DNA of 64,000 nucleotides. It comes from Squalus acanthias. Lineage: Eukaryota. The DNA is taken from positions 124,250,001-124,314,000 of the forward strand of contig CM059431.1 in the NCBI GenBank assembly GCA_030390025.1, in the 5' to 3' direction. Numbering within the stretch: the stretch's first letter is position 1; each line of letters opens with the position of its first letter. Of the stretch, positions 429-38,861 are shown piece by piece. The notes under the pieces are model-generated. The model searched no databases and was not told where the DNA came from. It saw only the letters and a list, made by a program, of their open reading frames with translations. The translations under genes and the position numbers were made by a program.

Positions 429-2029
429 TGTAGAATTCGCAATTATCGCGATTTCATTTTAATAAGGAGAAAACACAAGTTTCGTTCAAAACAGCTTTTA
501 TTTCAACGGAATGCTGTCAGGTTTAAATTAGACACAAGCAGCCTGTAAAATGGCCGCCGCACCGCGTGACAGAACATTCGAGACTTTTCGGCAGGCAGAC
601 AAGATGGCGTTCCAATAAACATTTTTGCAGGATCGATAACGATTCAGCACAGTGAAGACATTACACAGGACATTATGGGTTTACAGTATAAACATCGATA
701 CTGGAATCGGTCTCCCAGGTACAAAGGAAAGCCATCAAGGGCCCATCCAAAGGACATTAATATGTAAACTCCCAACGGCTCTACGATGAGAGAGCCGTTA
801 GCAGGTAGTTATACAGGACACTTGGAAGCCCCAAACCCCTCCAGGGGGAACACCGACCGATTTAACAATGGGAGAAGTATTAGCAGGTACTCAAACATTC
901 AGGAGTAGCCCCGAAACCCATTAAAGACAGAGATCACCCTTACAGGACTTTTTGGGCGCCAAACCTTAAACAAAAGAATGGACATTATAGTTGGGCGGGA
1001 AACGGAAGAACTGTGCACTATAATTGCAGGCCCAAACCGTCCATTCTGTCTCTTGACTCTTGATTCTTGCTCCTGCCTCGTGTTCGTGACTCTTGCCGCT
1101 TGCTGCTGTTATCATCGTGGCTGCTCCTGGGTAAAAGACTGTTGCAAAGACCTATGTTGGTAGCTGGCAGCGGAACCGAAGGCCCGGGATGAGATGAGAT
1201 GAGATGAGATGAGATGAGAGGAGAAGAGAAGAAGACCTTATCCATCGCCACGGTCAGTAAATCCCGACCGCGCCTGTAGGTCGATCAGCCAAGTCTTCTT
1301 GACAGGAAGTTCTCTTCTTTAACAAAACATATTGCATCGATGATAACTGGACTGTGCAAACACATCGTATCAGCGATATTGACAACGGTGCTCCACCATA
1401 CCCTGTATCCAACCAACAGAGGTCTTCACTACAGCGGACGGTCCAGCCGACTGACCGAGCAGCAGAAGCAGTAAACAAGTGGGACCAGGAGATCTCCTGA
1501 CCAACACGTGGGTGCTGCGGTGAAAAACATCCGATCAGCTATTCGGGATTTCTCCGAGTTATTACGAGTGGTGAGCATGAGTCTCGGGATCCTACGAAGC
1601 TAGTTTTAGGATAGTTATTGATAGGGGAGGGTTGAAAGTTTAAGGATATTTGTAATGTGTGCCCTATTTACGTTGTGCTGGTCGTTCCTCGTTTCCCTAA
1701 GAGTGATTATAACTGTTTGTAAGATTGTACTGTCATTCATCTGTGCATATGACATGTATTTCATAATTTTAAGTATCATGCAATAAAGATTTTCCATTTC
1801 GTACCGTTCAAACCAAGTCTACATGAGTTTTATCTCCATTACTGCTCTCGCATCTAAGTCCAGTGTCTAGAACCGTAAGGGAGAGTGATTCGAACCACTC
1901 ACAGGGGTGTCTAGTGTTCCCAGACTGGCTGGAGACCAGGCCTAGACCCGCACTGACATACAGGCTGCACAGAGCCGCGTGAACCTCACAGGCCACGAGA
2001 CACGCAGGGTCAGGAGAGTATCCCTTACA
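429..2029 (+). repeat. 5' LTR of provirus A (1601 bp)
   Basis: Starts TGTAGAATTCGC, ends TATCCCTTACA. Repeated at 8068-9668 (offset 7639) with identical ORF-track translations. AATAAA at 1782-1787; (GAGAT)n at ~1187-1217. Confidence 0.97.
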
Positions 2030-2033
2030 GAAA

Positions 2034-3845
2034 ATGGCGACCGCGGCACGAGACTGGCAGCGAGAGGGTAGTGTGTTAGATTTTGGAATGACTGTACGAA
2101 ATGTTATGCAGGAAAAGATAGCGGATTACGTGTTTGGAAAGGTTAATCTAACGAAAAAGTGGATAAGCGAACTGTTAGCGGATAAGAGCCCACTAGAGGC
2201 AGCTGAAAGGTGGACGGATAGTAAGGAGCATAAAAAGGCAGTTGAGAAAGCAGTCTGGCTTATGTGCTACAAAAGGCAGGTCCAGATTTCTAACCAGACC
2301 AATACAGCGCTAACCGCTCGAATCAAGCAGTTAGAGGAGGAAATGGAGGAGAAGGTTTCTGGAGGGGAGGTGCTCATTAAGAGTTTAAATGAGTTACGCC
2401 AGGAAAGCCAGGAAGTCTCCAGCTACCTTAAAACAAGGGTAGAGTATCTCGAGTGCCAGATCACTGAAGCAAAATTAAACGAGAATAGGATGAAGGAAAG
2501 ATGTAACCGTCAAGCTGCCCAGATAAGAACTCAAGAAGAGAGCTTAATGGGGGTTAGGTCGGCGTATAAGTTGGCCCTTGAGGATAAGTTTCAGGGAGCC
2601 GACCATAGCGCCTGCGAAAAAGAGATAGAGAGCCTCAAAAAGGCCGTGAATAATGCGAACGGCATGGTGTGCCTTATTAATCCGTCGGCACGCCAGCCGC
2701 TAGTAAATGAGAGATTTAGAAATTCCCCACCAAGTAAAGCAGAAGAGGTAGTAGCCACTGCGCCCTCCGCGCCACCCAGCTATTCAGAAACCTGGGTTAG
2801 GGAGGAAGCAACGGAAGAAGCGAAAGAGCCCGTTGAAAAAGAGGTAGAAAAGGGATCGTTGTATCCAGTAACGGGGATTAAAAGGGGCCCAAGCAGAAAC
2901 GGTGGGGAAGAACCGGGGGATCTCCTCGGACAGCTGGTGTTGCCTCACAGTTCACATCAGCTGAGGGCCATGATAAACCACGTAAGGAAGCTGACCGAGA
3001 TAGACGACCCTTCCGTACATTTTAGGGAAGTTGAGCAAGCCGCAGCCATCAACGGCTGCGATGATGGGGAGACAGCAAAAATGCTGCTGTTCTCGTTAGA
3101 TAGCTCGGTCCTTCAGTGTCTCTCAGGCGATAGCAAGAGGGGAAACAAAAGTTATGAGGAATTGAAAAATGAGGTCCTAGAAGTAGTGGGAGCGAACGAC
3201 GGAGGTCCGTTTGCTAGAGTGGGACAGACAGTGCAGATGGAGGGAGAACCCCCGAAGGTTTTTGCCGACAGGCTGTGGCCAGTATATGAGCGCAGCTGTC
3301 TAGGTGCGCCCGAGCGCGAAGATGTGGAAGGCGCCGCTTTAATTCATTGGCTTAGGTGCATAATAGCCAACAGTTTACCAGCCGTTAGAGAGCAGGCAAA
3401 AGCCTGGTTCGATCCCAATGACCTCAACCTTACGGAAGAGTCGGTCTTGAATCGACTCACGTTAGGTTACCGTAACATAAGGGGTATGGCAACACGTCCC
3501 TTTAAGGGAAGAGTACATGAGGTACGACCCGCAGCCCCGGCTCAAAGAGAGTGGCATCAGGAGGGTAATCGCGCCCCACCGGCAAGCAATGCCTGTTACG
3601 GGTGTGGGAAGACAGGGCACTGGCGCAAGCACTGCAGGAACCCTTGGAAGGATTCCAAGGATAAGAATCCCGCGGTCCGAGCCCAGGCGCCTGTCCCGGC
3701 TAAGGAAGCAAAGGTACCCACCTCTCCCGAAGACCTCGAAGCAGTGTTAGGAGTCATGCGCAAGATGGTTTTAAATGCGCGTGGACAGGTGGCGGTCGCA
3801 ACCGGCCCCGTAGGTGCCGCAGGACCGTCTAATAGTACCCAATGA
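2034..3845 (+). CDS. gag: Gag (603 aa): N-terminal coiled coil, PSAPPSY late domain, capsid-like region, CCHC zinc knuckle
   Basis: Intact ORF directly after the LTR; CYGCGKTGHWRKHC at 3594-3635; about 98% aa identity to 35401-37212. Confidence 0.93.
   Translation: MATAARDWQREGSVLDFGMTVRNVMQEKIADYVFGKVNLTKKWISELLADKSPLEAAERWTDSKEHKKAVEKAVWLMCYKRQVQISNQTNTALTARIKQLEEEMEEKVSGGEVLIKSLNELRQESQEVSSYLKTRVEYLECQITEAKLNENRMKERCNRQAAQIRTQEESLMGVRSAYKLALEDKFQGADHSACEKEIESLKKAVNNANGMVCLINPSARQPLVNERFRNSPPSKAEEVVATAPSAPPSYSETWVREEATEEAKEPVEKEVEKGSLYPVTGIKRGPSRNGGEEPGDLLGQLVLPHSSHQLRAMINHVRKLTEIDDPSVHFREVEQAAAINGCDDGETAKMLLFSLDSSVLQCLSGDSKRGNKSYEELKNEVLEVVGANDGGPFARVGQTVQMEGEPPKVFADRLWPVYERSCLGAPEREDVEGAALIHWLRCIIANSLPAVREQAKAWFDPNDLNLTEESVLNRLTLGYRNIRGMATRPFKGRVHEVRPAAPAQREWHQEGNRAPPASNACYGCGKTGHWRKHCRNPWKDSKDKNPAVRAQAPVPAKEAKVPTSPEDLEAVLGVMRKMVLNARGQVAVATGPVGAAGPSNSTQ
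2035..2052 (+). promoter_or_regulatory. Primer-binding site, probably tRNA-Arg(UCG), overlapping the gag start codon
   Basis: TGGCGACCGCGGCA begins after a 5-nt gap (GAAAA) following the LTR. The consensus with copy B (TGGCGACCGCGGCAGGAC) matches the complement of the vertebrate tRNA-Arg-TCG 3' end as I recall it; not checked by search. Confidence 0.75.
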
Positions 3846-5006
3846 CTAGAGCCCACGCAGCCTGCCTACCTGTGTCCTTTTAAAAGACACGCACAGGAGG
3901 GGGTCTGCGGTGAGGAGGCCAGGTTAAAAGAGCAGGCCTTGCGGGAGGAGAACGCCCGCTTAATAGAGAAAATAGATGGGCTGGAAGGGCAGCTTAGAGA
4001 GCAGACCCTGCGGGAGGAGAACGCCCGATCAATGGGAAAGTTAGACGTGCTCAGGCTAGAAGAGCAGCTTAGAGAGATAAAAGCAGCCTACAGGGTAGCC
4101 AAAAGCAGGGAGTATGAGTATTTAAAACAGGATAGAAATCTGCAGCCTCCAGCAGGTGAGATTTCACAGAAACAAGCAGGGGCGGTGGCCTGTCTTAAGG
4201 GAGGGGCCAGACCTGCGAGTGGGGAAGCACAGCCCCAGGTAGGACCACAAGGCACACAGGCAGGCATAGCAGCTTGCATCAGGGGAAGGGACATCCCGGA
4301 CGATCATGCAGCGTTTTTCTGGAGTTGGGGGTTAGATGACGAGGACCCCAGGGTACCCTGGTCAGATGAGGATAGTGCAGATGAGCATAGTGATGATGAC
4401 GGGTGGTTTCACAGGAACGGTCTGGAAGGATTGGGGCCGCTAGGTAGAGATCCATACGGGGTGGACACACAAGCTGCAGGTCCCGACAGCAGGAGGAAGG
4501 AGCTAGAGGAGGCCGGGCCAGCCGCTATGTGGTTCCCAGAGGTGTGGCCGCCCGCTTTGAACGTCCAGTCCTCGGGGGAGGCAGAGTTCGCGAGTGAAGG
4601 GCCGCCTGCTGGGCCGAGCAGGGCGGGGCCCCGAACTGCCAGCCCCGAGGTTAGGGAGGAGGAGTCAGCGGAGGCGGGGCTGGCGCCTGTGATGGAACCC
4701 CAGGTCATCCCGTTGAAGGTCTCGGGACCCGGTCCGTCCGTCACGGAGCCCCCGCCCATAGCAATTCCCCGTAGGTCAAGCAGAGTACCCCAGCCCAGGA
4801 AGACGTGGTCAGGTCCACAGGCTGCCCCAGGGCGTAAGTTTCAGGTTAAGATAACCCGGGTAGAGACAGGCCACATCGAGGCAGTAACAGGCTGCGGCAG
4901 ATCAGAGGAAAGGGTCAGCGCAGCAACAGGCTGCGGCAAATCAGAGGGAAGGGTCAGTGCCCTCCCACCGTCGGGAAGAGCTCGCAGCAGCCTTCTCAGG
5001 ATTTAA
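3846..5006 (+). CDS. ORF X: in-frame continuation past the gag UGA. First ~10 Pol residues, then a ~115-aa Gag-like coiled coil, then the Pol/IN C-terminal tail (predicted 990-aa Gag-X readthrough product)
   Basis: Open and in frame with gag (3939-2034 is divisible by 3; no stop in 3846-3938). The C-terminal ~260 aa align with the end of copy B Pol. No PR, RT, RH or IN motifs. Confidence 0.8.
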   Translation, partial: LEPTQPAYLCPFKRHAQEGVCGEEARLKEQALREENARLIEKIDGLEGQLREQTLREENARSMGKLDVLRLEEQLREIKAAYRVAKSREYEYLKQDRNLQPPAGEISQKQAGAVACLKGGARPASGEAQPQVGPQGTQAGIAACIRGRDIPDDHAAFFWSWGLDDEDPRVPWSDEDSADEHSDDDGWFHRNGLEGLGPLGRDPYGVDTQAAGPDSRRKELEEAGPAAMWFPEVWPPALNVQSSGEAEFASEGPPAGPSRAGPRTASPEVREEESAEAGLAPVMEPQVIPLKVSGPGPSVTEPPPIAIPRRSSRVPQPRKTWSGPQAAPGRKFQVKITRVETGHIEAVTGCGRSEERVSAATGCGKSEGRVSALPPSGRARSSLLRI

Positions 5007-5288
5007 AGGGGCCGCCCTGAGAACGGGCGGCATTGTAAAGTTATTAGTTTAAGGTTTTAAGTTTAGTTTAAAGTTTTAAGTAGTTTTAATAAGTTTAAGT
5101 TTGTAGTGGTTTTAACAGATAACGACAAATGATGGGAGTTTTAAGGCTAGGTTTAGAGGAAGTCTGTTCAGCAAACGTTGAAGTTTACGTGAGGCGAGGT
5201 CAGGGGACCCGCTCACCCTTCACAAAAGCCAGAGACTTTTTGCGAGGCTGGCTACCTCATTCTATCTGATCACAGGAACCAAGGAAGG

Positions 5289-7640
5289 ATGGAACGACTT
5301 CTAGTTTTGCTCGTGGCAATCGGATGTGGATTGGCCTATCGGGGCCTCACCAAGGATGTCGTGGTGTTTGGATGTTCCGGGGACACGGCCCCCATCGCGG
5401 TGGATGGGACCGGGAGACGGAAGGCAGAAGGGACCAGCACCTATTTCCACAAGGGAAGGTGGCCAGGATGGCTGGGAACGAACTCAACGGAGTATTCCAG
5501 CACATCGGGGTTCGCCTACAAAGAGACTTCTTTAATGTGCCCCAAAGTACGGATCATCGCACCCAGGATCAGCGTCACCGTCGGCAAACGGATTTGTTTG
5601 ACTTGCAGTGGGAATGTCCCATTGAGCCGATGGTGGTGGCTGCGAAAGCTGAGCAAAACTATGAGGAACTCTTCGGTCGAGTGGGAGCGACTGGGTAATA
5701 ATACCCATCGGACAATTACGGGGACAGATGGACAAGTGAAAGTCTGTTGGGACAAATGGTGGGAACCAGATGAGGGGATTTATGTTTGTATGTGGGGGTC
5801 AAAGTACGTTTGCCCCAAAGGCATCTCCATATTCTTTATTAACCAGTGGCAGGATAACGGACAGGGGATGAGGTGGGATGCGAGCACCAGGGGGTGCGGA
5901 GCCCCATTCTCCCCGATCCCAGTAAATGCCACTGAGCTCATTACGCGCCCACGCAAAGCCCCGCCCACGATTCCGGTAGTTCTAACTGAGGAAGAAGGGT
6001 GCCCTAAAACTAGTAAGGGACCCGGGAACGGTTTGGTACTGGTCCCCACAGACCAGATACTATTTCAGGGAGTGCATTACGCGGTGGCCTCGGTGATTTT
6101 AAATCTCACTGAGGTACGGTTACCAGAGTGGTGCCCCAAAAAGACGGAACAGTTGTACCAGGTCCTGTTGACCAAGATGTTCAGGCAGTTTTACGAGTTC
6201 GATTTCGCGGAAATTGATAAGACAAGTTTATACACCGCACCGCAGGAAGTTTTGGATCAAGTTGGGAGGCAAAGAAGGGGTTTGGTGAACGATGCGTTCA
6301 CTGCTTTTAACACAGGGACATCTGTGGTCAACGCTCTAGACAGTGTGGAGCTGCAGACCCAGATTAATGGTTTAAAAACACAGTTAAAGGATATTCTCAC
6401 GGATGAGAATAAAGTGGTAGGGTCGGGTCTGCACGAGGACCAAGCCATGACACTACACTTAAAAGAGATTATAGCAGAGCTGGAGAAACATGCGCGTACG
6501 GTAAATGCCCTGATTAGGGAAGATCGGAATGCATCCGATCAAGCTGCGCAGAACGAGGTGTGCGTGCTTTACGGGGCGTGGTTACTGGGCGAGGGCCGCA
6601 GTAATTTGGAGGATTTAAAACAAGGTTTGGTCCCGTCCTGGATAAGTAACAAACACCTGCGGGCGCTCCACCCTTTTCAGAATGCATTAAGTCCGTGCCA
6701 GCTCAGGCTAGCTTCAGAAGCTTACCCAGTCCCCGTGGACTGCGGACGTTCAAACCATACTATTATGGGAATAGTATTACGCATGCCGGTTTTGGGCAAC
6801 ACAGCAAAGCCCGCCCCGGTGTATCGGGTAGAGAACATTGGTGTCATTCAGGGGGGAGCCCACATTCGTTATGCAGCGGTTCCACCTTACGTCATCCGCT
6901 GGGAGCAAACGATGACAGGTACAGATCTCTCTGGTTGTCGTGGCAGGGGAGCACACATAATACTGTGCCCCCAGCACTTGAATGCCTTTTTAACACCACA
7001 GTGCGGGTTCAGAACGGCTGGCGCCAAGTCCATGAATTGCACCATGGAGGCAATGGCACAAGATCATGTGCCTCCGCAGGTAGCATACATCGGGGGTGGA
7101 ACATATTGTGTTACCACTGCAGCGCAACACTACCAGCATGGAAACCGTAGCCGGTGTCCGGTGAGTGACAGCAGTTTCTGTTTTAAACCCAGGGCTGAAG
7201 TTCAAGTAGCACAACAGCGAATTATCCCAATCCCTGAACCATCCACTGTTCACCTCACAGTAAAAGAGAATTTTACCGACTTGCAGCGTTTTGTCGCACA
7301 TTTTGGGTACCTCATTCCCCCTCTCCCCGAGCATTTAACCAAACTTCTGAAAGCCGTCGCGGTGTCACAAAAGCATTTCTATACTTTAGAACAGAAAACC
7401 GTCGAGATAGGTACAGACATTTTGGACATAGTGGTTCCACCGTGGTGGAATCTGTTCACGAATATTGAAGTGCCCTCATGGGTCAGAATAGCCTCCCACA
7501 TTTTAGTCGTCTGTCAAGTGTTTATTGTAGTATACCTTTTGTTTATACATTGTAAAAGAGACAAGCGCCTCACCAAGCATGAGAACACGGGAGAGTGGCG
7601 AGAACGTTACGTGCGCGTGCACGATGAGAGCGCAGTGTAA
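5289..7640 (+). CDS. env: Env-like class I fusion glycoprotein (783 aa): signal peptide, Ig-like domain, furin site RQRR, heptad repeat, Cys-rich region, TM, cytoplasmic tail
   Basis: Hydrophobic N-terminus; RQRR|GLVNDAFTAF at 6267-6278 followed by heptads; several NxS/T sites; TM ILVVCQVFIVVYLLFI; position before the 3' LTR; candidate acceptor ...tctgatcacag at 5275. Confidence 0.9.
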   Translation: MERLLVLLVAIGCGLAYRGLTKDVVVFGCSGDTAPIAVDGTGRRKAEGTSTYFHKGRWPGWLGTNSTEYSSTSGFAYKETSLMCPKVRIIAPRISVTVGKRICLTCSGNVPLSRWWWLRKLSKTMRNSSVEWERLGNNTHRTITGTDGQVKVCWDKWWEPDEGIYVCMWGSKYVCPKGISIFFINQWQDNGQGMRWDASTRGCGAPFSPIPVNATELITRPRKAPPTIPVVLTEEEGCPKTSKGPGNGLVLVPTDQILFQGVHYAVASVILNLTEVRLPEWCPKKTEQLYQVLLTKMFRQFYEFDFAEIDKTSLYTAPQEVLDQVGRQRRGLVNDAFTAFNTGTSVVNALDSVELQTQINGLKTQLKDILTDENKVVGSGLHEDQAMTLHLKEIIAELEKHARTVNALIREDRNASDQAAQNEVCVLYGAWLLGEGRSNLEDLKQGLVPSWISNKHLRALHPFQNALSPCQLRLASEAYPVPVDCGRSNHTIMGIVLRMPVLGNTAKPAPVYRVENIGVIQGGAHIRYAAVPPYVIRWEQTMTGTDLSGCRGRGAHIILCPQHLNAFLTPQCGFRTAGAKSMNCTMEAMAQDHVPPQVAYIGGGTYCVTTAAQHYQHGNRSRCPVSDSSFCFKPRAEVQVAQQRIIPIPEPSTVHLTVKENFTDLQRFVAHFGYLIPPLPEHLTKLLKAVAVSQKHFYTLEQKTVEIGTDILDIVVPPWWNLFTNIEVPSWVRIASHILVVCQVFIVVYLLFIHCKRDKRLTKHENTGEWRERYVRVHDESAV

Positions 7641-8055
7641 TGGGAAAACGGCGTCACTCCCGCTCGCCATGTGCGCCGCGGAAGTTTGTGCTCAGTGTAA
7701 ATACGTTGGAAACTCGACATGTTTAAGAGTCGGGATTTGTTTATTTTGGTGATGGTGTTGATTGTTTGGTTTTTTTTTGGGTTTTGTTTTTCCTTTCCCT
7801 GAATAAAAGATAAATATACAGGTGATGCGTGAGGTATCGGCCTGGTTACGCCGGGAAGGAAAACAAGTGGTGTAAGTTTAAGGGCAAATGATGCCTACGG
7901 TGATATAAAGTGTGATTTTCTTGGGAAATAAGGACGACACAGAGACCCTAGTGAAGTTAAAATTTTATGGGATTAATTTACTGGATTCGGAGTGAAATCG
8001 AGATAAGATTGCTCACCACTGAGTTTTTGATACGATAAGCGGAGTTATTCGCATC

Positions 8056-8067
8056 AACAGGAGGGAC
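8056..8067 (+). promoter_or_regulatory. Polypurine tract (short)
   Basis: AACAGGAGGGAC immediately before the 3' LTR; same sequence in copy B (27816-27827, minus strand). Confidence 0.75.
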
Positions 8068-9668
8068 TGTAGAATTCGCAATTATCGCGATTTCATTTTA
8101 ATAAGGAGAAAACACAAGTTTCGTTCAAAACAGCTTTTATTTCAACGGAATGCTGTCAGGTTTAAATTAGACACAAGCAGCCTGTAAAATGGCCGCCGCA
8201 CCGCGTGACAGAACATTCGAGACTTTTCGGCAGGCAGACAAGATGGCGTTCCAATAAACATTTTTGCAGGATCGATAACGATTCAGCACAGTGAAGACAT
8301 TACACAGGACATTATGGGTTTACAGTATAAACATCGATACTGGAATCGGTCTCCCAGGTACAAAGGAAAGCCATCAAGGGCCCATCCAAAGGACATTAAT
8401 ATGTAAACTCCCAACGGCTCTACGATGAGAGAGCCGTTAGCAGGTAGTTATACAGGACACTTGGAAGCCCCAAACCCCTCCAGGGGGAACACCGACCGAT
8501 TTAACAATGGGAGAAGTATTAGCAGGTACTCAAACATTCAGGAGTAGCCCCGAAACCCATTAAAGACAGAGATCACCCTTACAGGACTTTTTGGGCGCCA
8601 AACCTTAAACAAAAGAATGGACATTATAGTTGGGCGGGAAACGGAAGAACTGTGCACTATAATTGCAGGCCCAAACCGTCCATTCTGTCTCTTGACTCTT
8701 GATTCTTGCTCCTGCCTCGTGTTCGTGACTCTTGCCGCTTGCTGCTGTTATCATCGTGGCTGCTCCTGGGTAAAAGACTGTTGCAAAGACCTATGTTGGT
8801 AGCTGGCAGCGGAACCGAAGGCCCGGGATGAGATGAGATGAGATGAGATGAGATGAGAGGAGAAGAGAAGAAGACCTTATCCATCGCCACGGTCAGTAAA
8901 TCCCGACCGCGCCTGTAGGTCGATCAGCCAAGTCTTCTTGACAGGAAGTTCTCTTCTTTAACAAAACATATTGCATCGATGATAACTGGACTGTGCAAAC
9001 ACATCGTATCAGCGATATTGACAACGGTGCTCCACCATACCCTGTATCCAACCAACAGAGGTCTTCACTACAGCGGACGGTCCAGCCGACTGACCGAGCA
9101 GCAGAAGCAGTAAACAAGTGGGACCAGGAGATCTCCTGACCAACACGTGGGTGCTGCGGTGAAAAACATCCGATCAGCTATTCGGGATTTCTCCGAGTTA
9201 TTACGAGTGGTGAGCATGAGTCTCGGGATCCTACGAAGCTAGTTTTAGGATAGTTATTGATAGGGGAGGGTTGAAAGTTTAAGGATATTTGTAATGTGTG
9301 CCCTATTTACGTTGTGCTGGTCGTTCCTCGTTTCCCTAAGAGTGATTATAACTGTTTGTAAGATTGTACTGTCATTCATCTGTGCATATGACATGTATTT
9401 CATAATTTTAAGTATCATGCAATAAAGATTTTCCATTTCGTACCGTTCAAACCAAGTCTACATGAGTTTTATCTCCATTACTGCTCTCGCATCTAAGTCC
9501 AGTGTCTAGAACCGTAAGGGAGAGTGATTCGAACCACTCACAGGGGTGTCTAGTGTTCCCAGACTGGCTGGAGACCAGGCCTAGACCCGCACTGACATAC
9601 AGGCTGCACAGAGCCGCGTGAACCTCACAGGCCACGAGACACGCAGGGTCAGGAGAGTATCCCTTACA
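8068..9668 (+). repeat. 3' LTR of provirus A (1601 bp)
   Basis: Direct repeat of 429-2029, followed by TSD ATGG. Confidence 0.97.
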
Positions 9669-27815: not shown

Positions 27816-28373
27816 GTCCCTCCTGTTGATGCGAATAACTCCGCTTATCGTATCAAAACTCTCAGTGGTGAGCAATCTTATCTCGATTTCACTCCGAATC
27901 CAGTAAATTAATCCCATAAATTTTAACTTAACTAGGGTCTCTGTGTCGTCCTTATTTCCCAAGAAAATCACATTTTATATCACCATAGGCATCATTTGCC
28001 CTTAAACTTACACCACTTGTTTTCCTTCCCGGCGTAACCAGGCCGATACCTCACGCATCACCTGTATATTTGTCTTTTATTCAGGGAAAGGAAAAACAAA
28101 ACCCAAAACCAAACAATCAACACCATCACCAAAATAAAACAAATCCCAACTCTTAAACATATCGAGTTTCCAACGTATTTACAATGAGTACAAACTTCCG
28201 CGGCGCACGTGGCGAGCGGGAGTGACGCCATTTTCCTATTACACGGTACTCTCGTCGTGCACGCGCACGTAACGTTCTCGCCACTCTCCCGTGTTCTCAT
28301 GCTTGGTGAGGCGCTTGTCTCTTTTACAATGTATGAACAATAGGTATACTACAATAAACACTTGACAGACGAC

Positions 28374-30590: not shown

Positions 30591-30876
30591 CCTTCCTTGG
30601 TTCCTGTGATCAGATAGAATGAGGTAGCCAGCCTCGCAAAAAGGTCTCTGGCTGTTGTGAAGGGTGAGCGGGTCCCCTGACCTCGCCTCACGTAAACTTC
30701 AACGTTTGCTGAATAGACTTCCTCTAAACCTAGCCTTAAAACTCCCATCATTTTATCGTTTTCTGTTAAAAACACTACAAACTTAGCCTTATTAAAACTA
30801 CAAACTTAACCTTGAACTAAAACTTAAAACTTAAAACTAAAACTTTACAGTGCCGCCCGTTCTCAGGGCGGCCCCT

Positions 30877-33800
30877 TTAAATTCTGAGAAGGCTGCTGCG
30901 AGCTCTTCCCGACGGTGGGAGGGCACTGACCCTTCCCTCTGATCTGCCGCAGCCTGTTGCTGCGCTGACCCTTTCCTCTGATCTGCCGCAGCCTGTTACT
31001 GCTTCGATGTGGCCTGTCTCTACCCGGGTTATCTTAACCTGAAACTTACGCCTTGGGGCAGTCTGGGGACATGACCACATCCTCCTGGGCTGGGGTTCTC
31101 TACTAGACCTACGGGGAGTTGCTATGGGCGGGGGTTCCGTGACGGACGGACCGGGTTCCGAGACCTCCAACGGGACGACCTGGGGTTCCATCACAGTCGC
31201 CGACTCCGCCTCCGCTGACTCCGCCTCCCTAACCCCGGGGCTGGCATTTCGTGGCTCCGCCCTGCTCGGCCCAGCAGGCGGCCCTTCACTCGTGATCTCT
31301 GCCTCCCCTGAGGACTGGACGTTCAAAGCGGGCGGCCACACCTCTGGGAACCACATTGGTACTCTCTGTGCTCCTATAGCGGCTGGCCCCGCCTCCTCTA
31401 GCTCCTCCCTCCTGTACTCGGGACCTGCAGCTTGTGTGTCCACCCCGTGTGGATCTCTACCTATCGGCCCCAATCCTCCCAGACCGTTCCTCCGGAACCA
31501 CCCGTCATCATCACTATGCTCATCTGCACTATCCTCATCTGACCAGGGTACCCTGGGTTCTTCGTCATCTAACCCCCAACTCCAGAAAAACGCTGCATGA
31601 TCGTCCGGGATGTCCCTTCCCCTGATGCAAGCTGCTACGCCTGCCTGTGTGCCTTGTGGTCCTACCTGGGGCTGTGTTTTCCCATTGGCGGGATTTACCC
31701 CTGTAGTTTTCCCCTGCGCACCCGGCTGGTACAGTTTGCATTGGTTTATGTGGAACCACTTAGTGCGCCGAGGTACTTTTACGGCGTAAACCATGGGACT
31801 CGCCTTGTCTACAATGTTGTAGGGTCCCATATACAGTGGTTCCAGACTCCCTACTCTGGCGTAGTTTCTGACCATGACCTGGTCTCCTACTTCCCACTCC
31901 CGCGTTTTGCGGGGTTCCAGCAACAAGCGATTGCCCTGATGCTGCCTTCCCATGTTCCCAGCCGCCTGCTCATAAACTTGCTTCAGGCGCTCCAAGAGAG
32001 TTTGGGCGAACTTGTCCCTGCTGATCTCTTGAAGCTGACCCTCAGTGAGCACCGGGGCTAGCACATGGGTGGGGGTTCGCATGAGCCTGCCGGTCATTAC
32101 CTCGTGCGGGGAGTACCCCGTACTTTTTGACTGACTGGCCCGGACCCCCATGAGGACTAAAGGCAGAACTTCCGCCCATTTTTGGGGCGAGTTCCTAGTC
32201 TCTTTCCTCAATTTCTCCTTCAGGGTCCGGTTCATACGTTCAACAATCCCGGATGACTGGGGATTGTGTGCTACGTGCCACTTCCCTTCAATGCCCAAAA
32301 GCATGAGGGTGTTCTGCATCACCTGGCCGGTGAAATGACTCCCTTGGTCTGACTCCACGAAACGGGGGAGTCCCCACCGCGAGAACACTTCCCGGACCAA
32401 GATTTTTGCTGTACCCAGTGCCGTAGCTGTTCGACAAGGGAAGGCTTCCACCCACTTGGAAAACACATCCACCAGGACGAGGCAGTACTTATAACCTCCC
32501 TGGGTGGTGGGCAGGGGTCCTATATAGTCGATCTGTATCGACTGCCATGGTCCCTCTACCCTTCTTACGTGTCCCATGGGCACCTTCCTTTTCTGGGGGT
32601 CTGGGTTGTTTGCAGCGCACACAAGACAGTTAGCGCAGAACTCGCGGACTTGTTCCCTGAGCCCTGGCCACCATCCCGCTTGCTCTACCCGTTGCCAGGT
32701 AACCTCGGGCCCGGGGTGCCCTGCCCCTGGTCCCTCGTGAGCCAACTGGAGGAATTCCCTCCTGTGCTGCTGCGGCACAACCCACTGCTCCCCGCGGAAC
32801 AGCATGCCTTCCTTAACTGAGAGGGTTGCCGTACTGTACGGACCTTCTACCTGCCTCCCCTCAGCAATCGTTTTTAGGACTGCTTTTAGGGCGGGATCCT
32901 GGGCTTGGACGGTCTTAAGGTCTAGGGGCAATGCTACCCTGGTGTTCCCGGTATTCCCGTCCCCACCTCGGACCGCTGCTATGGGTCCGGTCCTATAGGG
33001 GTTCCAGAAAATACCGTCTCGGGCACCCTCCCTGGCTAGCGCATCCGCCTGCCGGTTGCCCTCCCCACGGGGCTCTGTGGAGGAGTGAGCTTTCACCTTA
33101 TGGATGAAAATCTCCCCTTCCTCCCCTACTGCTGCTGCTAAGATCTTTTCCAGCAAGGGCTTCACCGTTAAAGGTCGCCCGTCCGCGGAGGTGTATCCGC
33201 GGCGGGACCAAATGGCCAGGTATTCCGTACACGAATTGCAGGTGAACATACTGTCCGAGCAAATCGTGTATGGGGTTGGGAAAATGTCTGGGTGGGTCAC
33301 CACGTACACCACGGCAGACAGCTCAGCTTGCTGCGCGCTCATGGTGCTAGGGAGCTTGATCGCCAGGGCAAGGTCTGCCGCAGGGTCATAAACTCCACAC
33401 CCTGTGAGTCGCTCGCCAGCAGACACTGTGCTAGACCCATCAACATAAATCTCGCGCCCAGTGGGATGTATCCCGGCCCGTAAACCTATGTTGACGTCCC
33501 ACACCCCTTCCACCGAACACCGGTGGGCTGTACCGGGGTATACCAAATTGGCCGCAAGCCTGGGCTCGCAAAGACCTTTTACTCTAAGATCCAACTGGGA
33601 GAGAAGAAGGGTCCAACGCGCAATGCGTGCGCTGCTTACGGTCCCATCTTTAATCCTCCCATCCAGAAGCATCTTAGTTGGTGTGTGATGTGTGAGGAGA
33701 GTGATGGGAGAGAGCCCTGTGAAGATCGCTGATCTTTTCACAGCCCAATGCGTGGCTAAAAGGTGCCTTTCGCAATTGGAGAAACTTCTCTCCACATCCG

Positions 33801-35400
33801 CTAATACCCTGGATGAATAGACAACCGGCCTCAGCTTGCCGTGACGCTCTTGGAGCAGCACGGCGCTTAAGCTGTCTCCGCTGGCAGCTACCTCCAGGAA
33901 AAACTCCTTCCCCCCATCTATGGCCCCTAAGGCTGGCGCGGTCTGCAGATCCCTTTTTAACTTCTCGAAGGCTGCTTGGCAGCCCTCGTCCCAAAGCCAC
34001 TCCACCCCCTTATGGAGGAGTCGGAGGAGCGGCGCCGCTGTGGCCGCATAATCTTCGATAAAATCCCTGCAGTAACCGGTCAGTCCCAAGAAGGACCTCA
34101 CACCCCTTACGTTGTTGGGAATCGGTAATTCTTGCACCGACTCCCTCCTTGCTTTGTCTATGGCTCTTTCCCCAGCGCGTAGGGTCAGTCCCAGGAATTT
34201 TACTTCCTGCTGACCGATACGTGCTTTCTTTGGGTTTACTTTAAAACCCTTTCTCGCTAACAGCTCCAATAACTCGTCCAGTAGTGGTCCGTGCTCCTCC
34301 CTTGAGTCCGTAAATAGGAGCAAATCATCCACATACTGTACTATCTGATTGGGCTGACTAAACTCCTTTAAACTTCCTGCCATACACTGATGAAAAATAC
34401 TGGGGCTATTGTGGAAACCCTGTGGCAAACAGTTCCACGTGTACTGTTGCCCTTTAAACGTAAAGGCAAACTTGTACTGGTCCTCTCGCCGCAGCGGGAT
34501 GGACCAAAAACCGTTCGAGATATCCAGCACCGTGAACGTGGTCGCGGACGCTGGGATGCTCCCTATTAGGTCAGCAACTGCTGCTACTGTGGGCGCGCAG
34601 GCGGGAATGTTACTGTTAAGGACTCTGTAGTCCACCGTGGCTCTCCACGAATTATCCGGCTTCCTAACCGGCCATAATGGGGAGTTCACGTGTGTGGCTA
34701 TCGGCCTCAACACGCCCTGCTGCACCAAGGAAGACATTGCTGCCTCCATATCGGGTTCTGCTTCTTTGGGGAAGTTATACTGCTTTTGGGGTCGGGTCAT
34801 GGGGTCCCCATCTACGCTGACCTCAAACCCGACCACCCTCCCACAATCGTGCTTGTGGGTTGCAAACGCGTGCATATTATCTGTCACGTACGTTTGCATG
34901 TCCGTTGGGACATCTGCGACCATAAGCCTGAGGTCGTAGCCTCCGGATGGCTGTACGGTACACAGGACCCCTGTTTCTTCCTCCCCTTGAATTACCATTA
35001 CCTCGCCTTTTTCACCTTTAGCCCCCCAGAGACAGTGATTTCTGAGGTCCACGAGGATCCCGTGTCCCGCTAGGAGATCGGACCCGAGAATACCTCTTCC
35101 ACCCCCCTTTTGCCATGCCATCAGGATACACTTCCACTTAAGGCGAAGTGTCCCTAAACGAATGGATAGCGGGAGGGAAAACGTGCCAGCCTGTTCTTTC
35201 CCTGTGAACCCTGCTAGCGTGAATGGGACCTTGGTAGATAGCGGCGAGTCAAAAGGGTCATCTGTATGGATTATGGTGCAAGAAGCTCCCGTGTCCAACA
35301 AATAACTGCCCTTCTGTTTCTCTACCTCCATCTCCACCACAGGTCGCCTCCACGCATCATAGCTAAGCGGACACAGGTAGACGGGCTGTGCTGGTTCTAG
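30877..35400 (-). CDS. pol: Pol: protease, RT, degenerate RNase H (tether), active RNase H, integrase, long low-complexity tail; in frame with gag after a single UGA
   Basis: LLDTGA (~35290); LPQGF and YVDD (~34330); FFLEVAAS...RPVVYSSR; IYVDGS/AQQAEL/CSDS/HKVKAH/GNRQAD; HHCC; QIDYIG/SDQG/VERMN; GPY. Confidence 0.96.
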   Translation of the reverse strand, partial: LEPAQPVYLCPLSYDAWRRPVVEMEVEKQKGSYLLDTGASCTIIHTDDPFDSPLSTKVPFTLAGFTGKEQAGTFSLPLSIRLGTLRLKWKCILMAWQKGGGRGILGSDLLAGHGILVDLRNHCLWGAKGEKGEVMVIQGEEETGVLCTVQPSGGYDLRLMVADVPTDMQTYVTDNMHAFATHKHDCGRVVGFEVSVDGDPMTRPQKQYNFPKEAEPDMEAAMSSLVQQGVLRPIATHVNSPLWPVRKPDNSWRATVDYRVLNSNIPACAPTVAAVADLIGSIPASATTFTVLDISNGFWSIPLRREDQYKFAFTFKGQQYTWNCLPQGFHNSPSIFHQCMAGSLKEFSQPNQIVQYVDDLLLFTDSREEHGPLLDELLELLARKGFKVNPKKARIGQQEVKFLGLTLRAGERAIDKARRESVQELPIPNNVRGVRSFLGLTGYCRDFIEDYAATAAPLLRLLHKGVEWLWDEGCQAAFEKLKRDLQTAPALGAIDGGKEFFLEVAASGDSLSAVLLQERHGKLRPVVYSSRVLADVERSFSNCERHLLATHWAVKRSAIFTGLSPITLLTHHTPTKMLLDGRIKDGTVSSARIARWTLLLSQLDLRVKGLCEPRLAANLVYPGTAHRCSVEGVWDVNIGLRAGIHPTGREIYVDGSSTVSAGERLTGCGVYDPAADLALAIKLPSTMSAQQAELSAVVYVVTHPDIFPTPYTICSDSMFTCNSCTEYLAIWSRRGYTSADGRPLTVKPLLEKILAAAVGEEGEIFIHKVKAHSSTEPRGEGNRQADALAREGARDGIFWNPYRTGPIAAVRGGDGNTGNTRVALPLDLKTVQAQDPALKAVLKTIAEGRQVEGPYSTATLSVKEGMLFRGEQWVVPQQHRREFLQLAHEGPGAGHPGPEVTWQRVEQAGWWPGLREQVREFCANCLVCAANNPDPQKRKVPMGHVRRVEGPWQSIQIDYIGPLPTTQGGYKYCLVLVDVFSKWVEAFPCRTATALGTAKILVREVFSRWGLPRFVESDQGSHFTGQVMQNTLMLLGIEGKWHVAHNPQSSGIVERMNRTLKEKLRKETRNSPQKWAEVLPLVLMGVRASQSKSTGYSPHEVMTGRLMRTPTHVLAPVLTEGQLQEISRDKFAQTLLERLKQVYEQAAGNMGRQHQGNRLLLEPRKTREWEVGDQVMVRNYARVGSLEPLYMGPYNIVDKASPMVYAVKVPRRTKWFHINQCKLYQPGAQGKTTGVNPANGKTQPQVGPQGTQAGVAACIRGRDIPDDHAAFFWSWGLDDEEPRVPWSDEDSADEHSDDDGWFRRNGLGGLGPIGRDPHGVDTQAAGPEYRREELEEAGPAAIGAQRVPMWFPEVWPPALNVQSSGEAEITSEGPPAGPSRAEPRNASPGVREAESAEAESATVMEPQVVPLEVSEPGPSVTEPPPIATPRRSSREPQPRRMWSCPQTAPRRKFQVKITRVETGHIEAVTGCGRSEERVSAATGCGRSEGRVSALPPSGRARSSLLRI

Positions 35401-37212
35401 TCATGGGGCACTATTAGACGGTCCTGCGGCACCTACGGGGCCGGTTGCGACCGCCACCTGTCCACGCGCATTCAAAACCATCTTGCGCATGACTCCTAAC
35501 ACTGCTTCGAGGTCGTCGGGAGAGGTGGGTGCCTTTGCTTCCTTAGGCGGGACAGGCGCCTGGGCTCGGACCGCGGGATTTTTATCCTTGGAATCCTTCC
35601 AAGGGTTCCTGCAGTGCTTGCGCCAGTGCCCTGTCTTCCCACACCCGTAACAGGCATTACTTGCCTGTGGGGCGCGATTACCCTCCTGATGCCACTCTCT
35701 TTGAGCTGGGGCTGCGGGTCGTACCTCATGTACTCTTCCCTTAAAGGGACGTGTCGTCATACCCCTTATGTTACGGTAACCTAACGTGAGTCGATTCAAG
35801 ACCGACTCTTCCGTAAGGTTGAGGTCATTGGGATCGAACCAGGCTTTTGCCTGCTCTCTAACGGCTGGTAAACTGTTGGCTATTATGCACCTAAGCCAAT
35901 GAATTAAAGCGGCGCCTTCCACATCTTCGCGCTCGGGCGCACCTAGACAGCTGCGCTCATATACTGGCCACAGCCTGTCGGCAAAAACCTTCGGGGGTTC
36001 TCCCTCCATCTGCACTGTCTGTCCTACTCTAGCAAACGGACCTCCGTCGTTCGCCCCCACTACTTCTAGGACCTCATTTTTCAATTCCTCATAACTTTTG
36101 TTTCCCCTCTTGCTCTCGCCTGAGAGACACTGAAGGACCGAGCTATCTAACGAGAACAGCAGCATTTTTGCTGTCTCCCCATCATCGCAGCCGTTGATGG
36201 CTGCGGCTTGCTCAACTTCCCTGAAATGTACGGAAGGGTCGTCTATCTCGGTCAGCTTCCTTACGTGGTTTATCATGGCTCTCAGCTGATGTGAACTGTG
36301 AGGCAACACCAGCTGTCCGAGGAGATCCCCCGGTTCTTCCCCACCGTTTCTGCTTGGGCCCCTTTTAATCCCCGTTACTGGATACAACGATCCCTTTTCT
36401 ACTTCCTTTTCAACGGGCTCTTTTGTTTCTTCCGTTGCTTCCTCCCTAACCCAGGTTTCTGAATAGCTGGGTGGCGCGGAGGGCGCAGTGGCTACTACTT
36501 CTTCTGCTTTACTTGGTGGGGAATTTCTAAATCTCTCATTTACTAGCGGCTGGCGCGCCGACGGATTAATAAGGCACACCATGCCGTTCGCATTATTCAC
36601 GGCCTTTTTGAGGCTCTCTATCTCTTTTTGGCAGGCGCTATGGTCGGCTCCCTGAAACTTATCCTCAAGGGCCAACTTATACGCCGACCTAACCCCCATT
36701 AAGCTCTCTTCTTGAGTTCTTATCTGGGCAGCTTGGCGGTTACATCTTTCCTTCATCCTACTCTCGTTCAATTTTGCTTCAGTGATCTGGCACTCGAGAT
36801 ACTCTACCCTTGTTTTAAGGTAACTGGAGACTTCCTGGCTTTCCTGGCGTAACTCATTTAAACTCTTAATGAGCACCTCCCCTCCAGAAACCTTCTCCTC
36901 CATTTCCTCCTCTAAATGCTTGATTCGAGCTGTTAGCGCTGTATTGGTCTGGTTTGAAATCTGAACCTGCCTTTTGTAGCACATAAGCCAGACTGCTTTC
37001 TCAACTGCCTTTTTATGCTCCTTACTATCAGTCCACCTTTCAGCTGCCTCTAATGGGCTCTTATCCGCTAACAATTCGCTTATCCACTTTTTAGTTAGAT
37101 TAACCTTTCCAAACACGTAATCCGCTATCTTTTCCTGCATCACATTTCGTACAGTCATTCCAAAATCTAACACACTACCCTCTCGCTGCCAGTGTCCTGC
37201 CGCGGTTGCCAT
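35401..37212 (-). CDS. gag: Gag (603 aa)
   Basis: Intact; CCHC knuckle; PSAPPSY; near-identical to 2034-3845. Confidence 0.94.
   Translation of the reverse strand: MATAAGHWQREGSVLDFGMTVRNVMQEKIADYVFGKVNLTKKWISELLADKSPLEAAERWTDSKEHKKAVEKAVWLMCYKRQVQISNQTNTALTARIKHLEEEMEEKVSGGEVLIKSLNELRQESQEVSSYLKTRVEYLECQITEAKLNESRMKERCNRQAAQIRTQEESLMGVRSAYKLALEDKFQGADHSACQKEIESLKKAVNNANGMVCLINPSARQPLVNERFRNSPPSKAEEVVATAPSAPPSYSETWVREEATEETKEPVEKEVEKGSLYPVTGIKRGPSRNGGEEPGDLLGQLVLPHSSHQLRAMINHVRKLTEIDDPSVHFREVEQAAAINGCDDGETAKMLLFSLDSSVLQCLSGESKRGNKSYEELKNEVLEVVGANDGGPFARVGQTVQMEGEPPKVFADRLWPVYERSCLGAPEREDVEGAALIHWLRCIIANSLPAVREQAKAWFDPNDLNLTEESVLNRLTLGYRNIRGMTTRPFKGRVHEVRPAAPAQREWHQEGNRAPQASNACYGCGKTGHWRKHCRNPWKDSKDKNPAVRAQAPVPPKEAKAPTSPDDLEAVLGVMRKMVLNARGQVAVATGPVGAAGPSNSAP
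37194..37211 (-). promoter_or_regulatory. Primer-binding site (tRNA-Arg-like) overlapping the gag ATG
   Basis: TGGCAACCGCGGCAGGAC after a 5-nt gap downstream of the 5' LTR end. Confidence 0.78.
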
Positions 37213-37216
37213 TTTC

Positions 37217-38861
37217 TGTAAGGGATTCTCTCCTGACCCTGCGTGTCTCGTAGCCTGTGAGATTCACGCGGCTCTGTGCAGCCTGTATGTCAGTGCGGGT
37301 CTAGGCCTGGTCTCCAGCCAGTCTGGGAACACTAGACACACCTGTGAGTGGTTCGAATCACTCTCCCTTACGGTTCTAGACACTGGACTTAGATGCGAGA
37401 GCAGTAATGGAGATAAAACTCATGTAGACTTGGTTTGAACGGTACGAAATGGAAAATCTTTATTGCATGATACTTAAAATTATGAAATACATGTCATACG
37501 CACAGATTAATGACAGTACAATCTTACAAACGGTTATAATCACTCTTAGGGAAACGAGGAACGAACGGCACAACGTAAATAGGGCACACATTACCAATAT
37601 CCTTAATCTTTACACCCTCCCCTATCAATATCTATCCTAAACTAGCTTCGTAGGATCTCGAGACTCATGCTCACCACTCGTAATAACTCGGAGAAATCCC
37701 GAATAGCTGATCGGATGTTTTTTACCGCAGCACCCACGTGTTGGTCAGGAGATCTCCTGGTCCCACTTGTTTACTGCTTCTGCTGCTCGGCCAGTCGGCT
37801 GGACCGTCCGCTGTAGTGAAGACCTCTGTTGGTTGACTTCACAGTTTAGTTGAGGAACACCGTTGTCAATATCACTGATACGATGTGTTTACACAGTCCA
37901 GTTATCATTGATGCAATATGTCTTGTTAAAGAAGAAAACTTCCTGTCGAGAAGACTTGGCTGATCGACCTACAGGCGCGGTCGGGATTTACTGACCGTGG
38001 CGATGGATAAGGTCTTCTTCTCTTCTCCTCTCATCTCATCTCATCTCATCTCGGGCCTTTGGTTCCGCTGCCAGTTACCAACATAGGTCTTCTTTACGCG
38101 ACACGAGGTAGATCCGAACGGATCAGAAAGTTCAACAGTCTTTTACACAGGAGCAGCCACGAGGTTACGAATCGACCGGATAAAACACAGGAGCAGCCAC
38201 GATGATAACAGCAGCAAGCGAGCAAGAGGCAAGAGTCAAGAGAGCGAATGGACGGTTTGGGGCCTGCAATTATAGTGCGAAAATCTTCCGTTTCCCGCCC
38301 AACTATAATGTCCATTCTTTTGTTTAAGGTTTGGCGCCCAAATGTCTTGTGTGGGTGATCTCCGTCCTTAATGGGTTTCGGGGCTACTCATGAATGTTTG
38401 AGTACCTGTTAATACTTCTCCCATTGTTAAATCGGTCGGTGTTCCCCCTGGAGGGGTTTGGGGCTTCCAAGTGTCCTGTATAACTACCTGCTAACGGCTC
38501 TCTCATCGTAGAGCCGTTGGGAGTTTGCATATTAATGTCCTTTGGATGGGCCCTTGATGGCTTTCCTTTGTACCTGGGAGACCGATTCCAGTATCGATGT
38601 TTATACTGTAAACCCATAATATCTCGTGTATTATCTTCACTGTGCTGAATCGTTATCGATCCTGCAAAAATGTTTAATGGAACGCCATCTTGTCTGCCTG
38701 TTGAAAAGTCTAGAATGTTCTGTCACGAGGTGCGGCGGCCATTTTACAGGCTGCTTGTGTCCAATTTAAACCTGACAGCATTCTGCTGAAATAAACGCTG
38801 TTTGAACGAAACTTTGTGTTTTCTCCTTATTAATCAAATCGTGATAATTGCGAATTCTACA
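37217..38861 (-). repeat. 5' LTR of provirus B (1645 bp)
   Basis: Reverse complement of TGTAGAATTCGC...ATCCCTTACA; followed by TSD CTTT. Confidence 0.97.

What the first reader, a model, noticed from the sequence alone, without database searches (positions are those of the whole stretch)
429..38861. Complementary pair of young enveloped retroelements: a Gag+Env satellite lacking pol (A) and a Gag+Pol helper with anchorless Env (B)
Seen: A has intact gag and a full-length TM-anchored env but no enzymes. B has intact PR/RT/RH/IN but a stop at the start of the Env TM. Each copy has LTRs that look identical by eye and a perfect 4-bp TSD. A's pol replacement is in frame. Inference: A was reverse-transcribed and integrated in its present form using Pol supplied in trans. 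The family would then behave as a two-component helper/satellite virus, with A-type copies supplying membrane-anchored Env and B-type copies supplying enzymes. I know of no such description for lokiretrovirus-like elements.
Basis: partly seen in the sequence, partly recalled or inferred. Interest (0 to 1): 0.9.

Follow-up and report, generated by a model that had tools for sequence, protein, structure and literature searches.

The report
Pol-less retrovirus parasite beside its helper
Two very young proviruses of one fish-type retrovirus family sit here, a complete one and a shortened one that keeps its coat and envelope genes but has lost all enzymes and spreads with borrowed enzymes; they are not the mutually dependent pair first proposed.

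Summary
The anatomy is as described. A (429-9668, +) has gag, an in-frame enzyme-less stretch and a full env. B (26171-38861, -) has gag, PR-RT-RH-IN and an env stopped at the start of its membrane anchor. Each has 100% identical LTRs and a perfect 4-bp duplication.

The A form is not a one-off. Its left junction occurs 1085 times in the 3.7-Gb assembly, against 1719 for the B form. Seven of 10 other A copies examined show distinct perfect 4-bp duplications, and 4 of those 7 have identical LTR pairs. So A is copied in its pol-less form with Pol supplied in trans.

The "anchorless Env helper" does not hold. B's stop is unique in the assembly: 1 place against 917 for the sense version. It is absent from 23 of 23 other B copies. 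Env is open in 10 of 10 other B copies and 10 of 10 A copies.

Env is under strong purifying selection (dN/dS about 0.05). A and B env sequences intermix on a tree, which indicates recombination.

Verdict: a helper-dependent parasite of an autonomous, F-type-Env (lokiretrovirus-like) retrovirus. It is a new variant of a known kind.

The parts
429..2029 (+). A, 5' LTR (1601 bp, TG..CA), preceded by a 4-bp target duplication
   Evidence: 100% identical to 8068-9668
1983..3845 (+). A, gag frame. First ATG at 2034, right after the LTR. N-terminal coiled coil and a CCHC zinc knuckle. Ends in a stop followed by a context I recall as favouring read-through.
   Evidence: Against B: 16 non-synonymous and 27 synonymous differences
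3846..5006 (+). A, read-through frame without enzymes: 10 codons of the PR start, the A-specific insert, then the C-terminal tail of the pol frame
   Evidence: Open in 29 of 30 A copies. Evolves nearly neutrally.
3878..4220 (+). A-specific 343-nt insert that replaces PR-RT-RH-IN. Coiled-coil-like, with an internal imperfect repeat of about 70 nt. Origin unknown.
   Evidence: Left junction found 1085 times in the assembly.
5289..7640 (+). A, env (783 aa): signal peptide, basic cleavage site, fusion peptide and long helices, C-terminal membrane anchor and tail
   Evidence: Fold matches paramyxovirus and pneumovirus F proteins.
8068..9668 (+). A, 3' LTR, preceded by a purine-rich tract and followed by the same 4-bp duplication
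26171..27815 (-). B, 3' LTR (1645 bp)
   Evidence: 100% identical to 37217-38861, with a perfect 4-bp duplication outside
28251..30590 (-). B, env region (ATG at 30590). Homologous to A env codon for codon.
   Evidence: 4 non-synonymous and 57 synonymous differences from A
28374..28376 (-). B, premature stop at env codon 739, at the start of the membrane anchor. A single-base change private to this copy.
   Evidence: 1 place in the assembly against 917 for the sense version; 0 of 37 other copies
30877..35400 (-). B, pol frame (1507 aa) in frame behind the gag stop: PR, RT, tether RNase H-like domain, RNase H, integrase, and a tail of about 290 aa with no family
35401..37263 (-). B, gag frame (620 codons)
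37217..38861 (-). B, 5' LTR

Best explanation
A and B are two recent integrations of one very abundant, very young retrovirus family. Its Env is of the paramyxovirus-F type, so it is lokiretrovirus-like. The nearest named env relatives are from a skate and a sawshark.

B is the autonomous form (gag, read-through pol, env). This copy carries one private stop in env.

A is a non-autonomous derivative in which PR-RT-RH-IN was replaced once by 343 nt of unknown origin. It keeps the LTRs, the primer and polypurine sites, gag and env.

Proposed mechanism:
- A RNA is packaged into particles made in cells that also express B-type copies.
- It is reverse-transcribed and integrated by B's Pol.
- It often recombines with co-packaged B RNA, so its gag and env are drawn from the same pool as B's.

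A is therefore a parasite of B, or at most an optional extra source of Gag and Env. It is not an obligate partner.

Shown here: the structures, the copy numbers, independent integrations, the private nature of the stop, selection on env, and the mixing of A and B env lineages.

Inferred: packaging, use of B's Pol, co-packaging as the route of recombination, and Env-dependent (cell-to-cell or infectious) copying.
For: - Structures and enzyme domains.
- Copy numbers: A left junction 1085 places, B gag-PR junction 1719 places, reversed-pattern controls 0.
- The 541-nt probe across both A junctions matches full length at 99-100% in 40 of 40 scored places.
- Independent integration: 7 of 10 other A copies showed both ends, each with a different perfect 4-bp duplication.
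- Youth: LTR pairs are identical in 4 of those 7.
- The stop is private: 0 of 23 other B copies and 0 of 14 other copies carry it. The exact 31-mer occurs once, against 917 for the sense version. In this copy's env, the codons seen in no other of 21 copies are 3 synonymous, 0 non-synonymous and the stop.
- Env is open in 10 of 10 B and 10 of 10 A copies.
- Env dN/dS is 0.050 (A-A), 0.057 (B-B) and 0.051 (A-B).
- Recombination, tree: the A/B label needs 7 changes on the env tree, against a shuffled mean of 7.6. One A-B sister pair has 99/93 support.
- Recombination, nearest relatives: the 39 closest relatives of A's tail plus env are 11 A-type and 28 non-A. Ten of 10 of the latter that I checked carry B's integrase end.
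- Recombination, diversity: copies with near-identical inserts (pS 0.011) differ by pS 0.057 in gag.
- The A-specific insert shows no protein-level constraint (pN/pS 1.15).
- A close published precedent exists: bovine ERVK C/D types (PMC10924933, passages read).
Against: - No direct evidence of transcription, packaging or use of B's Pol. No RNA run was on record.
- A keeps gag open in 27 of 30 copies and env in 10 of 10. A-A env comparisons are as constrained as B-B. This window's A env has 14 private synonymous and 0 private non-synonymous codons. Pure parasitism does not require this. I explain it by recombination and youth, but direct selection on A's own Gag and Env is not excluded.
- The sampled copies were the best matches to the window's sequences, not a random sample.
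- Only the junction and the env C-terminus were tied together directly for 3 of the 10 'A' env copies. The others are called A because their match begins at the A/B boundary.
Confidence: 0.8

Rival explanations
1. One reading: an obligate two-part system in which A-type copies supply anchored Env and B-type copies supply enzymes, each lacking what the other gives.
For: In this window alone, B's env stops at the anchor and A has no enzymes.
Against: The stop occurs once in the assembly against 917 sense matches. It is absent from 23 of 23 other B copies. Ten of 10 other B copies have env open.
Confidence: 0.03
2. A is kept by selection on its own products. Either it is a cooperative partner that raises Gag and Env supply for mixed particles (division of labour), or it is an interfering form whose Gag, enzyme-less read-through protein or Env modulates the helper.
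For: - Gag is open in 27 of 30 A copies and the read-through frame in 29 of 30.
- Env is open in 10 of 10, with dN/dS 0.05 among A copies.
- A makes up 1085 of 2804 junction-bearing copies.
Against: - The only A-specific coding DNA evolves neutrally (pN/pS 1.15), as does the shared tail (0.86).
- A and B env lineages are interchangeable, so constraint in A can be inherited from B.
- B needs nothing from A.
Confidence: 0.12
3. A is a post-integration rearrangement, assembly artefact or segmental duplication, not a mobile form.
Against: - There are 1085 junction places on many contigs.
- There are 7 distinct perfect target duplications.
- LTR pairs are identical.
- Contigs of other public runs bridge both junctions.
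Confidence: 0.01

Closest known systems
Bovine ERVK[2-1-LTR] C-type (competent) and D-type (defective) elements (PMC10924933; abstract and passages read)
   Same: - An autonomous form and a shorter form whose central part is replaced by unalignable DNA.
- Shared flanks in gag and env.
- Many young copies, and recombination between the two forms ascribed to co-packaging.
- The defective form is very successful ('parasite of parasite').
   Different: - The bovine D-type has no intact genes. Here the defective form keeps complete gag and env frames (27 of 30 and 10 of 10 open) and loses only the enzymes.
- Copy numbers here are in the thousands rather than tens to hundreds.
- The retroviral lineage (F-type Env) and the host differ.
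MusD/ETn, IAP I-delta-1, KoRV/recKoRV (named in a passage of PMC10924933; details recalled)
   Same: Internally deleted or replaced proviruses that are mobilised by proteins of an intact relative.
   Different: As I recall, those lose most or all coding capacity, or keep gag-pol parts. None is described as a gag-plus-env, pol-less form.
Lokiretroviruses (PMC7947760; abstract and section 5 read)
   Same: - LTR-gag-pol-env layout.
- PR-RT-tether-RH-IN.
- Env with signal peptide, basic cleavage site, fusion peptide, coiled coil and membrane anchor, and likeness to paramyxovirus F.
- Coiled-coil-rich extra coding DNA (the paper reports an smc-like gene in some).
   Different: - No Pfam F0 match by sequence here; the likeness is seen only in the predicted fold.
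- RT phylogeny was not tested.
[quoted passage not shown] It has no occurrence of 'cartilaginous', 'shark', 'defective' or 'non-autonomous'.
Replication-defective retroviruses with helper virus, and defective interfering genomes (recalled, no call)
   Same: A genome that lacks pol, has foreign DNA fused in frame behind gag, and depends on a helper's enzymes.
   Different: - The inserted DNA here has no recognisable gene origin and no sign of selection.
- Env is retained.
- The form is fixed as more than a thousand germline copies.
Satellite or multipartite viruses with reciprocal dependence (recalled, no call)
   Same: Two genome types that travel together.
   Different: Reciprocity fails, because the helper type carries all genes.

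Membership tests
Lokiretrovirus (Wang & Han 2020) | LTR-gag-pol-env provirus with PR, RT, a degraded RNase H 'tether', RNase H and IN | tested here: met
   in B pol: RVP 17-111, RVT_1 245-407, RT_RNaseH_2/RT_RNaseH 470-602, RNase_H 650-793, Integrase_H2C2 875-933, rve 951-1047
Lokiretrovirus (Wang & Han 2020) | Env detectably similar in sequence to Mononegavirales fusion glycoprotein F0 (PF00523) | tested here: not met
   - No PF00523 match at E up to 10.
- No PDB sequence match.
- One distant homologue has a weak Baculo_F match, E 0.0011.
Lokiretrovirus (Wang & Han 2020) | Env with the fold and layout of a paramyxovirus-type F protein (cleavage site, fusion peptide, long helices, C-terminal anchor) | tested here: met
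   - AlphaFold2 model on 28 sequences: mean pLDDT 58.9, but 75-93 over about residues 235-310 and 400-650.
- Foldseek against PDB: every one of the 39 listed rows (ranks to 49) is a paramyxovirus or pneumovirus F. The best is hPIV3 F, E 1.2e-11, TM 0.50 on the target.
- The layout was read.
Lokiretrovirus (Wang & Han 2020) | RT branches as sister to all other retroviruses | not tested
   No reference sequences could be brought in. only shows near-equal similarity to Ty3 (1.7e-71), XMRV/MLV RT (9e-70) and foamy virus PR-RT (2e-63), with IN nearest to foamy virus IN (1e-33). This fits a deep branch but does not place it.
Non-autonomous, trans-complemented ERV derivative | Lacks the replication enzymes but shares LTRs and flanking internal sequence with an autonomous relative in the same genome | tested here: met
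   94-97% identity outside the replaced 3685 nt
Non-autonomous, trans-complemented ERV derivative | Many independent integrations in the deleted form | tested here: met
   - 1085 junction places.
- 7 of 10 examined copies with distinct perfect 4-bp duplications.
- 4 of those 7 have identical LTR pairs.
Non-autonomous, trans-complemented ERV derivative | Mobilised by the partner's proteins | not testable with these tools
   Inferred from the lack of any enzyme in A and from recombination with B
Reciprocal two-component (helper plus satellite, each defective) virus | Each partner class lacks a function that only the other supplies | tested here: not met
   B's env defect is private: 1 against 917 places, 0 of 23, and 10 of 10 B env open

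The most novel reading that the evidence does not exclude
The family is a currently active, Env-dependent, F-type-Env retrovirus of a cartilaginous fish. In it, a pol-less gag-plus-env genome is maintained as a regular second genome type, at about 39% of copies. It travels with and recombines with the full genome, and it is kept because its Gag and Env output, or its shorter RNA, raises the joint output of mixed particles. That would be a facultative bipartite retrovirus rather than a simple parasite.
Probability: 0.12. Interest if true: 0.8.

Novelty: new variant of a known kind. Interest (0 to 1): 0.5.

Why it matters
- It gives a clean natural example of a retroviral 'parasite of a parasite', with more than a thousand copies. 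The defective form has lost only the enzymes and keeps both structural genes.
- The family breaks the usual pattern in which high-copy endogenous retroviruses have lost env. About 2800 junction-bearing copies coexist with an env at dN/dS of about 0.05. This argues that copying goes through Env.
- It extends F-type-Env (lokiretrovirus-like) elements to what is probably a cartilaginous fish, with many proviruses whose LTR pairs are identical.
- It shows how a reading from one window can mislead: one private stop codon suggested a reciprocity that the rest of the genome rules out.

Tried and rejected
I used short stretches instead.
- Expression: no RNA holder listed. The four runs laid were contigs whose kind is a guess. 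They showed no splice-like joint that recurs across runs. Nothing follows for or against transcription.
- Origin of the 343-nt insert, with no source found:
  - no other match in the window by blastn or tblastx beyond its own internal repeat, plus chance hits to a low-complexity tract near 52.2-52.7 kb;
  - not significantly like gag (E 1.9);
  - only a sub-threshold Rab11-FIP3 coiled-coil hit;
  - no protein homologue among longer proteins;
  - genome searches with it return only A copies among the 40 scored.
- Env by sequence: no Pfam family, no PDB sequence match, and the protein atlas gave only an unnamed chordate cluster at 0.84.
- 'In-frame replacement means a functional fusion protein': rejected as unsupported. 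The insert and the tail evolve nearly neutrally (pN/pS 1.15 and 0.86). Part of the in-frame length variation fits copy-number change of a 39-nt repeat.
- Earlier notes of this scan: none for this genome.
- First-look candidate counts were not used as copy numbers. The pattern counts were used instead.
- No age in years is given, because I have no calibrated rate for this host.
Full report
**1. What is in the window**

Element A lies at 429-9668 on the plus strand.
- It has two 1601-bp LTRs that are 100% identical, begin TG, end CA, and are flanked by a perfect 4-bp duplication.
- The gag frame (1983-3845, first ATG at 2034) has a coiled-coil N-terminal half and a CCHC knuckle, and ends in a stop.
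- The same frame continues for 386 codons (3846-5006) without any enzyme domain.
- Env (ATG 5289 to 7640, 783 aa) ends in a hydrophobic anchor and a basic tail.

Element B lies at 26171-38861 on the minus strand.
- It has two 1645-bp LTRs, also 100% identical, with a different perfect 4-bp duplication.
- It has a 620-codon gag.
- Its 1507-codon pol frame follows the gag stop in frame. It holds protease, RT, an RNase H-like tether, RNase H and integrase.
- Its env stops at codon 739, where A's anchor begins.

A and B are 94-97% identical in DNA. The exception is that 343 nt of A (3878-4220) stand in place of 3685 nt of B, and both junctions are in frame.

**2. Is the A form mobile?**

- A probe across both A junctions matched full length at 99-100% in 40 of 40 scored places.
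- A 40-nt pattern across the left junction, allowing 2 mismatches, occurs 1085 times in the 3.7-Gb assembly. The matching pattern across B's intact gag-PR boundary occurs 1719 times. Both reversed-pattern controls gave 0.
- I fetched 501-nt windows at the expected ends of 10 other A copies. In 7, both ends lay inside the windows, and each had its own perfect 4-bp duplication. In 3, the ends lay outside what I fetched.
- The LTR pairs of those 7 are identical in 4, differ by 2 mismatches in 2, and differ by 4 mismatches plus 3 gaps in 1.

The pol-less form has therefore been reverse-transcribed and integrated again and again, and recently. As it has no enzymes, Pol must come in trans.

**3. Is B as a class 'anchorless'?**

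No.
- I took the 23 other copies that match the window's B best over 4 kb from integrase to the end of env. None has the stop. Nor do 14 further copies that lack the B-specific start of that probe.
- The exact 31-mer around the stop occurs once in the assembly, in this window. The sense version occurs 917 times.
- Env is open over all 780 sampled codons (of 783) in 10 of 10 other B copies and in 10 of 10 A-type copies.
- In this B copy's env, the codons seen in none of 21 other copies are 3 synonymous, 0 non-synonymous and the stop.

The stop is thus a single late lesion. It arose in the last replication cycle or after integration.

**4. Selection and exchange**

Pairwise Nei-Gojobori estimates on 22 env sequences:

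| Comparison | dN/dS |
|---|---|
| A-A | 0.050 |
| B-B | 0.057 |
| A-B | 0.051 |

- The window's A and B differ by 4 non-synonymous and 57 synonymous changes in env.
- Gag is also constrained: 16 non-synonymous against 27 synonymous between the window's copies, and pN/pS 0.23 among 30 A copies.
- The A-specific insert (pN/pS 1.15) and the shared tail of the pol frame (0.86 to 0.87) are nearly neutral. Being 'in frame' therefore carries no sign of a useful fusion protein. The frame is nonetheless open in 29 of 30 A copies, and gag in 27 of 30.

Three results point to recombination between A and B.
- On a maximum-likelihood env tree the A and B labels are fully mixed. They need 7 changes, against a shuffled mean of 7.6, and one A-B sister pair has 99/93 support.
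- The 39 nearest relatives of the window's A tail plus env are 11 A-type and 28 non-A copies, all at 99-100%. Ten of 10 of the latter that I checked have B's integrase end at the junction.
- A copies whose inserts are nearly identical differ by pS 0.057 in gag.

I read all this as frequent recombination, most simply through co-packaging of the two RNAs. That route is inferred, not shown.

The sampling was not random. Copies were the best matches to the window's sequences. This favours finding shared features, so it strengthens point 3. It lowers insert diversity.

**5. What kind of retrovirus**

- Pol is about equally close to Ty3, gammaretroviral and foamy-virus RTs. Its integrase is closest to foamy-virus integrase.
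- Env has no Pfam or PDB match by sequence. It has only 49 relatives at E up to 0.001 among 1.84 billion representatives.
- The named relatives are gene models from a skate and a sawshark. The host is therefore probably a cartilaginous fish. I did not try to identify it.
- An AlphaFold2 model built on 28 sequences has a mean pLDDT of 58.9, but 75-93 over roughly residues 235-310 and 400-650.
- In Foldseek that model finds only paramyxovirus and pneumovirus F proteins among the 39 listed rows (ranks to 49). The best is hPIV3 F at E 1.2e-11.
- An F-like Env is the hallmark given for lokiretroviruses (PMC7947760, abstract and section 5).

'Lokiretrovirus-like' is thus supported by architecture and Env fold. 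The sequence-level F0 match is not met, and the RT phylogeny was not tested. That paper's text has no occurrence of cartilaginous fishes or of defective or non-autonomous forms.

**6. Comparison with what is known**

- It has competent C-type and defective D-type elements with replaced centres.
- C and D recombine, which is ascribed to co-packaging, and the defective form dominates (PMC10924933, passages).
- That paper also lists MusD/ETn, IAP I-delta-1 and KoRV recombinants as parallels.
- 'Complementation in trans' is a standard third copying mode of ERVs (PMC10435555, introduction passage).

What differs here:
- The defective form keeps complete gag and env and loses only the enzymes.
- Both forms number above a thousand.
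- Env stays under strong constraint at that copy number. From memory, this runs against the usual link between env loss and high copy number.

My searches for 'lokiretrovirus' (15 papers held, 10 listed), for trans-complementation with env and for ERVs of cartilaginous fishes turned up no description of such a form. Supplements were not read.

**7. Verdict**

- The trans-mobilised pol-less form is real and abundant.
- The reciprocal helper/satellite idea is refuted.

This is a new variant of a known kind (a helper-dependent ERV derivative) in a little-known retroviral lineage. A cooperative role for A's Gag and Env is not excluded, and I give it about 12%.

Noticed in passing
assembly places listed (e.g. 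three A junctions on contig C1 spaced about 7.72 kb apart, same strand; B junctions spaced about 11.1 kb apart): Several same-strand junction hits are spaced by almost exactly one LTR-to-LTR period (7639 nt for A, 11046 nt for B). This suggests tandem proviruses that share an LTR.
   Followed up: no
window 2030-2055 and 37216-37190: The first ATG of the gag frame lies 5 nt after the 5' LTR and overlaps the putative primer-binding site (it starts TGG at 2035). There is therefore almost no leader between the LTR and gag. A and B differ at three positions of this site.
   Followed up: no
window 30880-31752 (-) and 4221-5003 (+): The pol frame runs about 290 codons beyond the integrase. This tail has no Pfam family and is nearly neutral between A and B (33 non-synonymous, 12 synonymous). 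It contains a 39-nt tandem repeat, yet it stays open in 29 of 30 A copies.
   Followed up: partly
window 41097-41516 (-) and 48257-48769 (+): Two degraded Harbinger/PIF-type transposase fragments (DDE_Tnp_4, E 1e-22 and 3e-9) with neighbouring overlapping frames. They show no DNA similarity to each other by blastn.
   Followed up: partly
window 53677-56031 (-): A degraded non-LTR retrotransposon: endonuclease (Exo_endo_phos_2, E 1e-8) and RT (RVT_1, E 2e-10) in broken frames.
   Followed up: partly
window 52107-52907: A low-complexity G/A-rich (C/T-rich on the other strand) tract that is open in several frames on both strands. It is the source of the chance tblastx hits to the A insert.
   Followed up: no
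public runs X1, X3, X10, X11: Contigs from runs under other organism codes bridge the A junctions (X3 and X10 the left one, X10 the right one). They also carry B-form ends at the same places (X1, X10, X11). So both forms occur together beyond this assembly. Whether the codes are different species is not known to me.
   Followed up: partly
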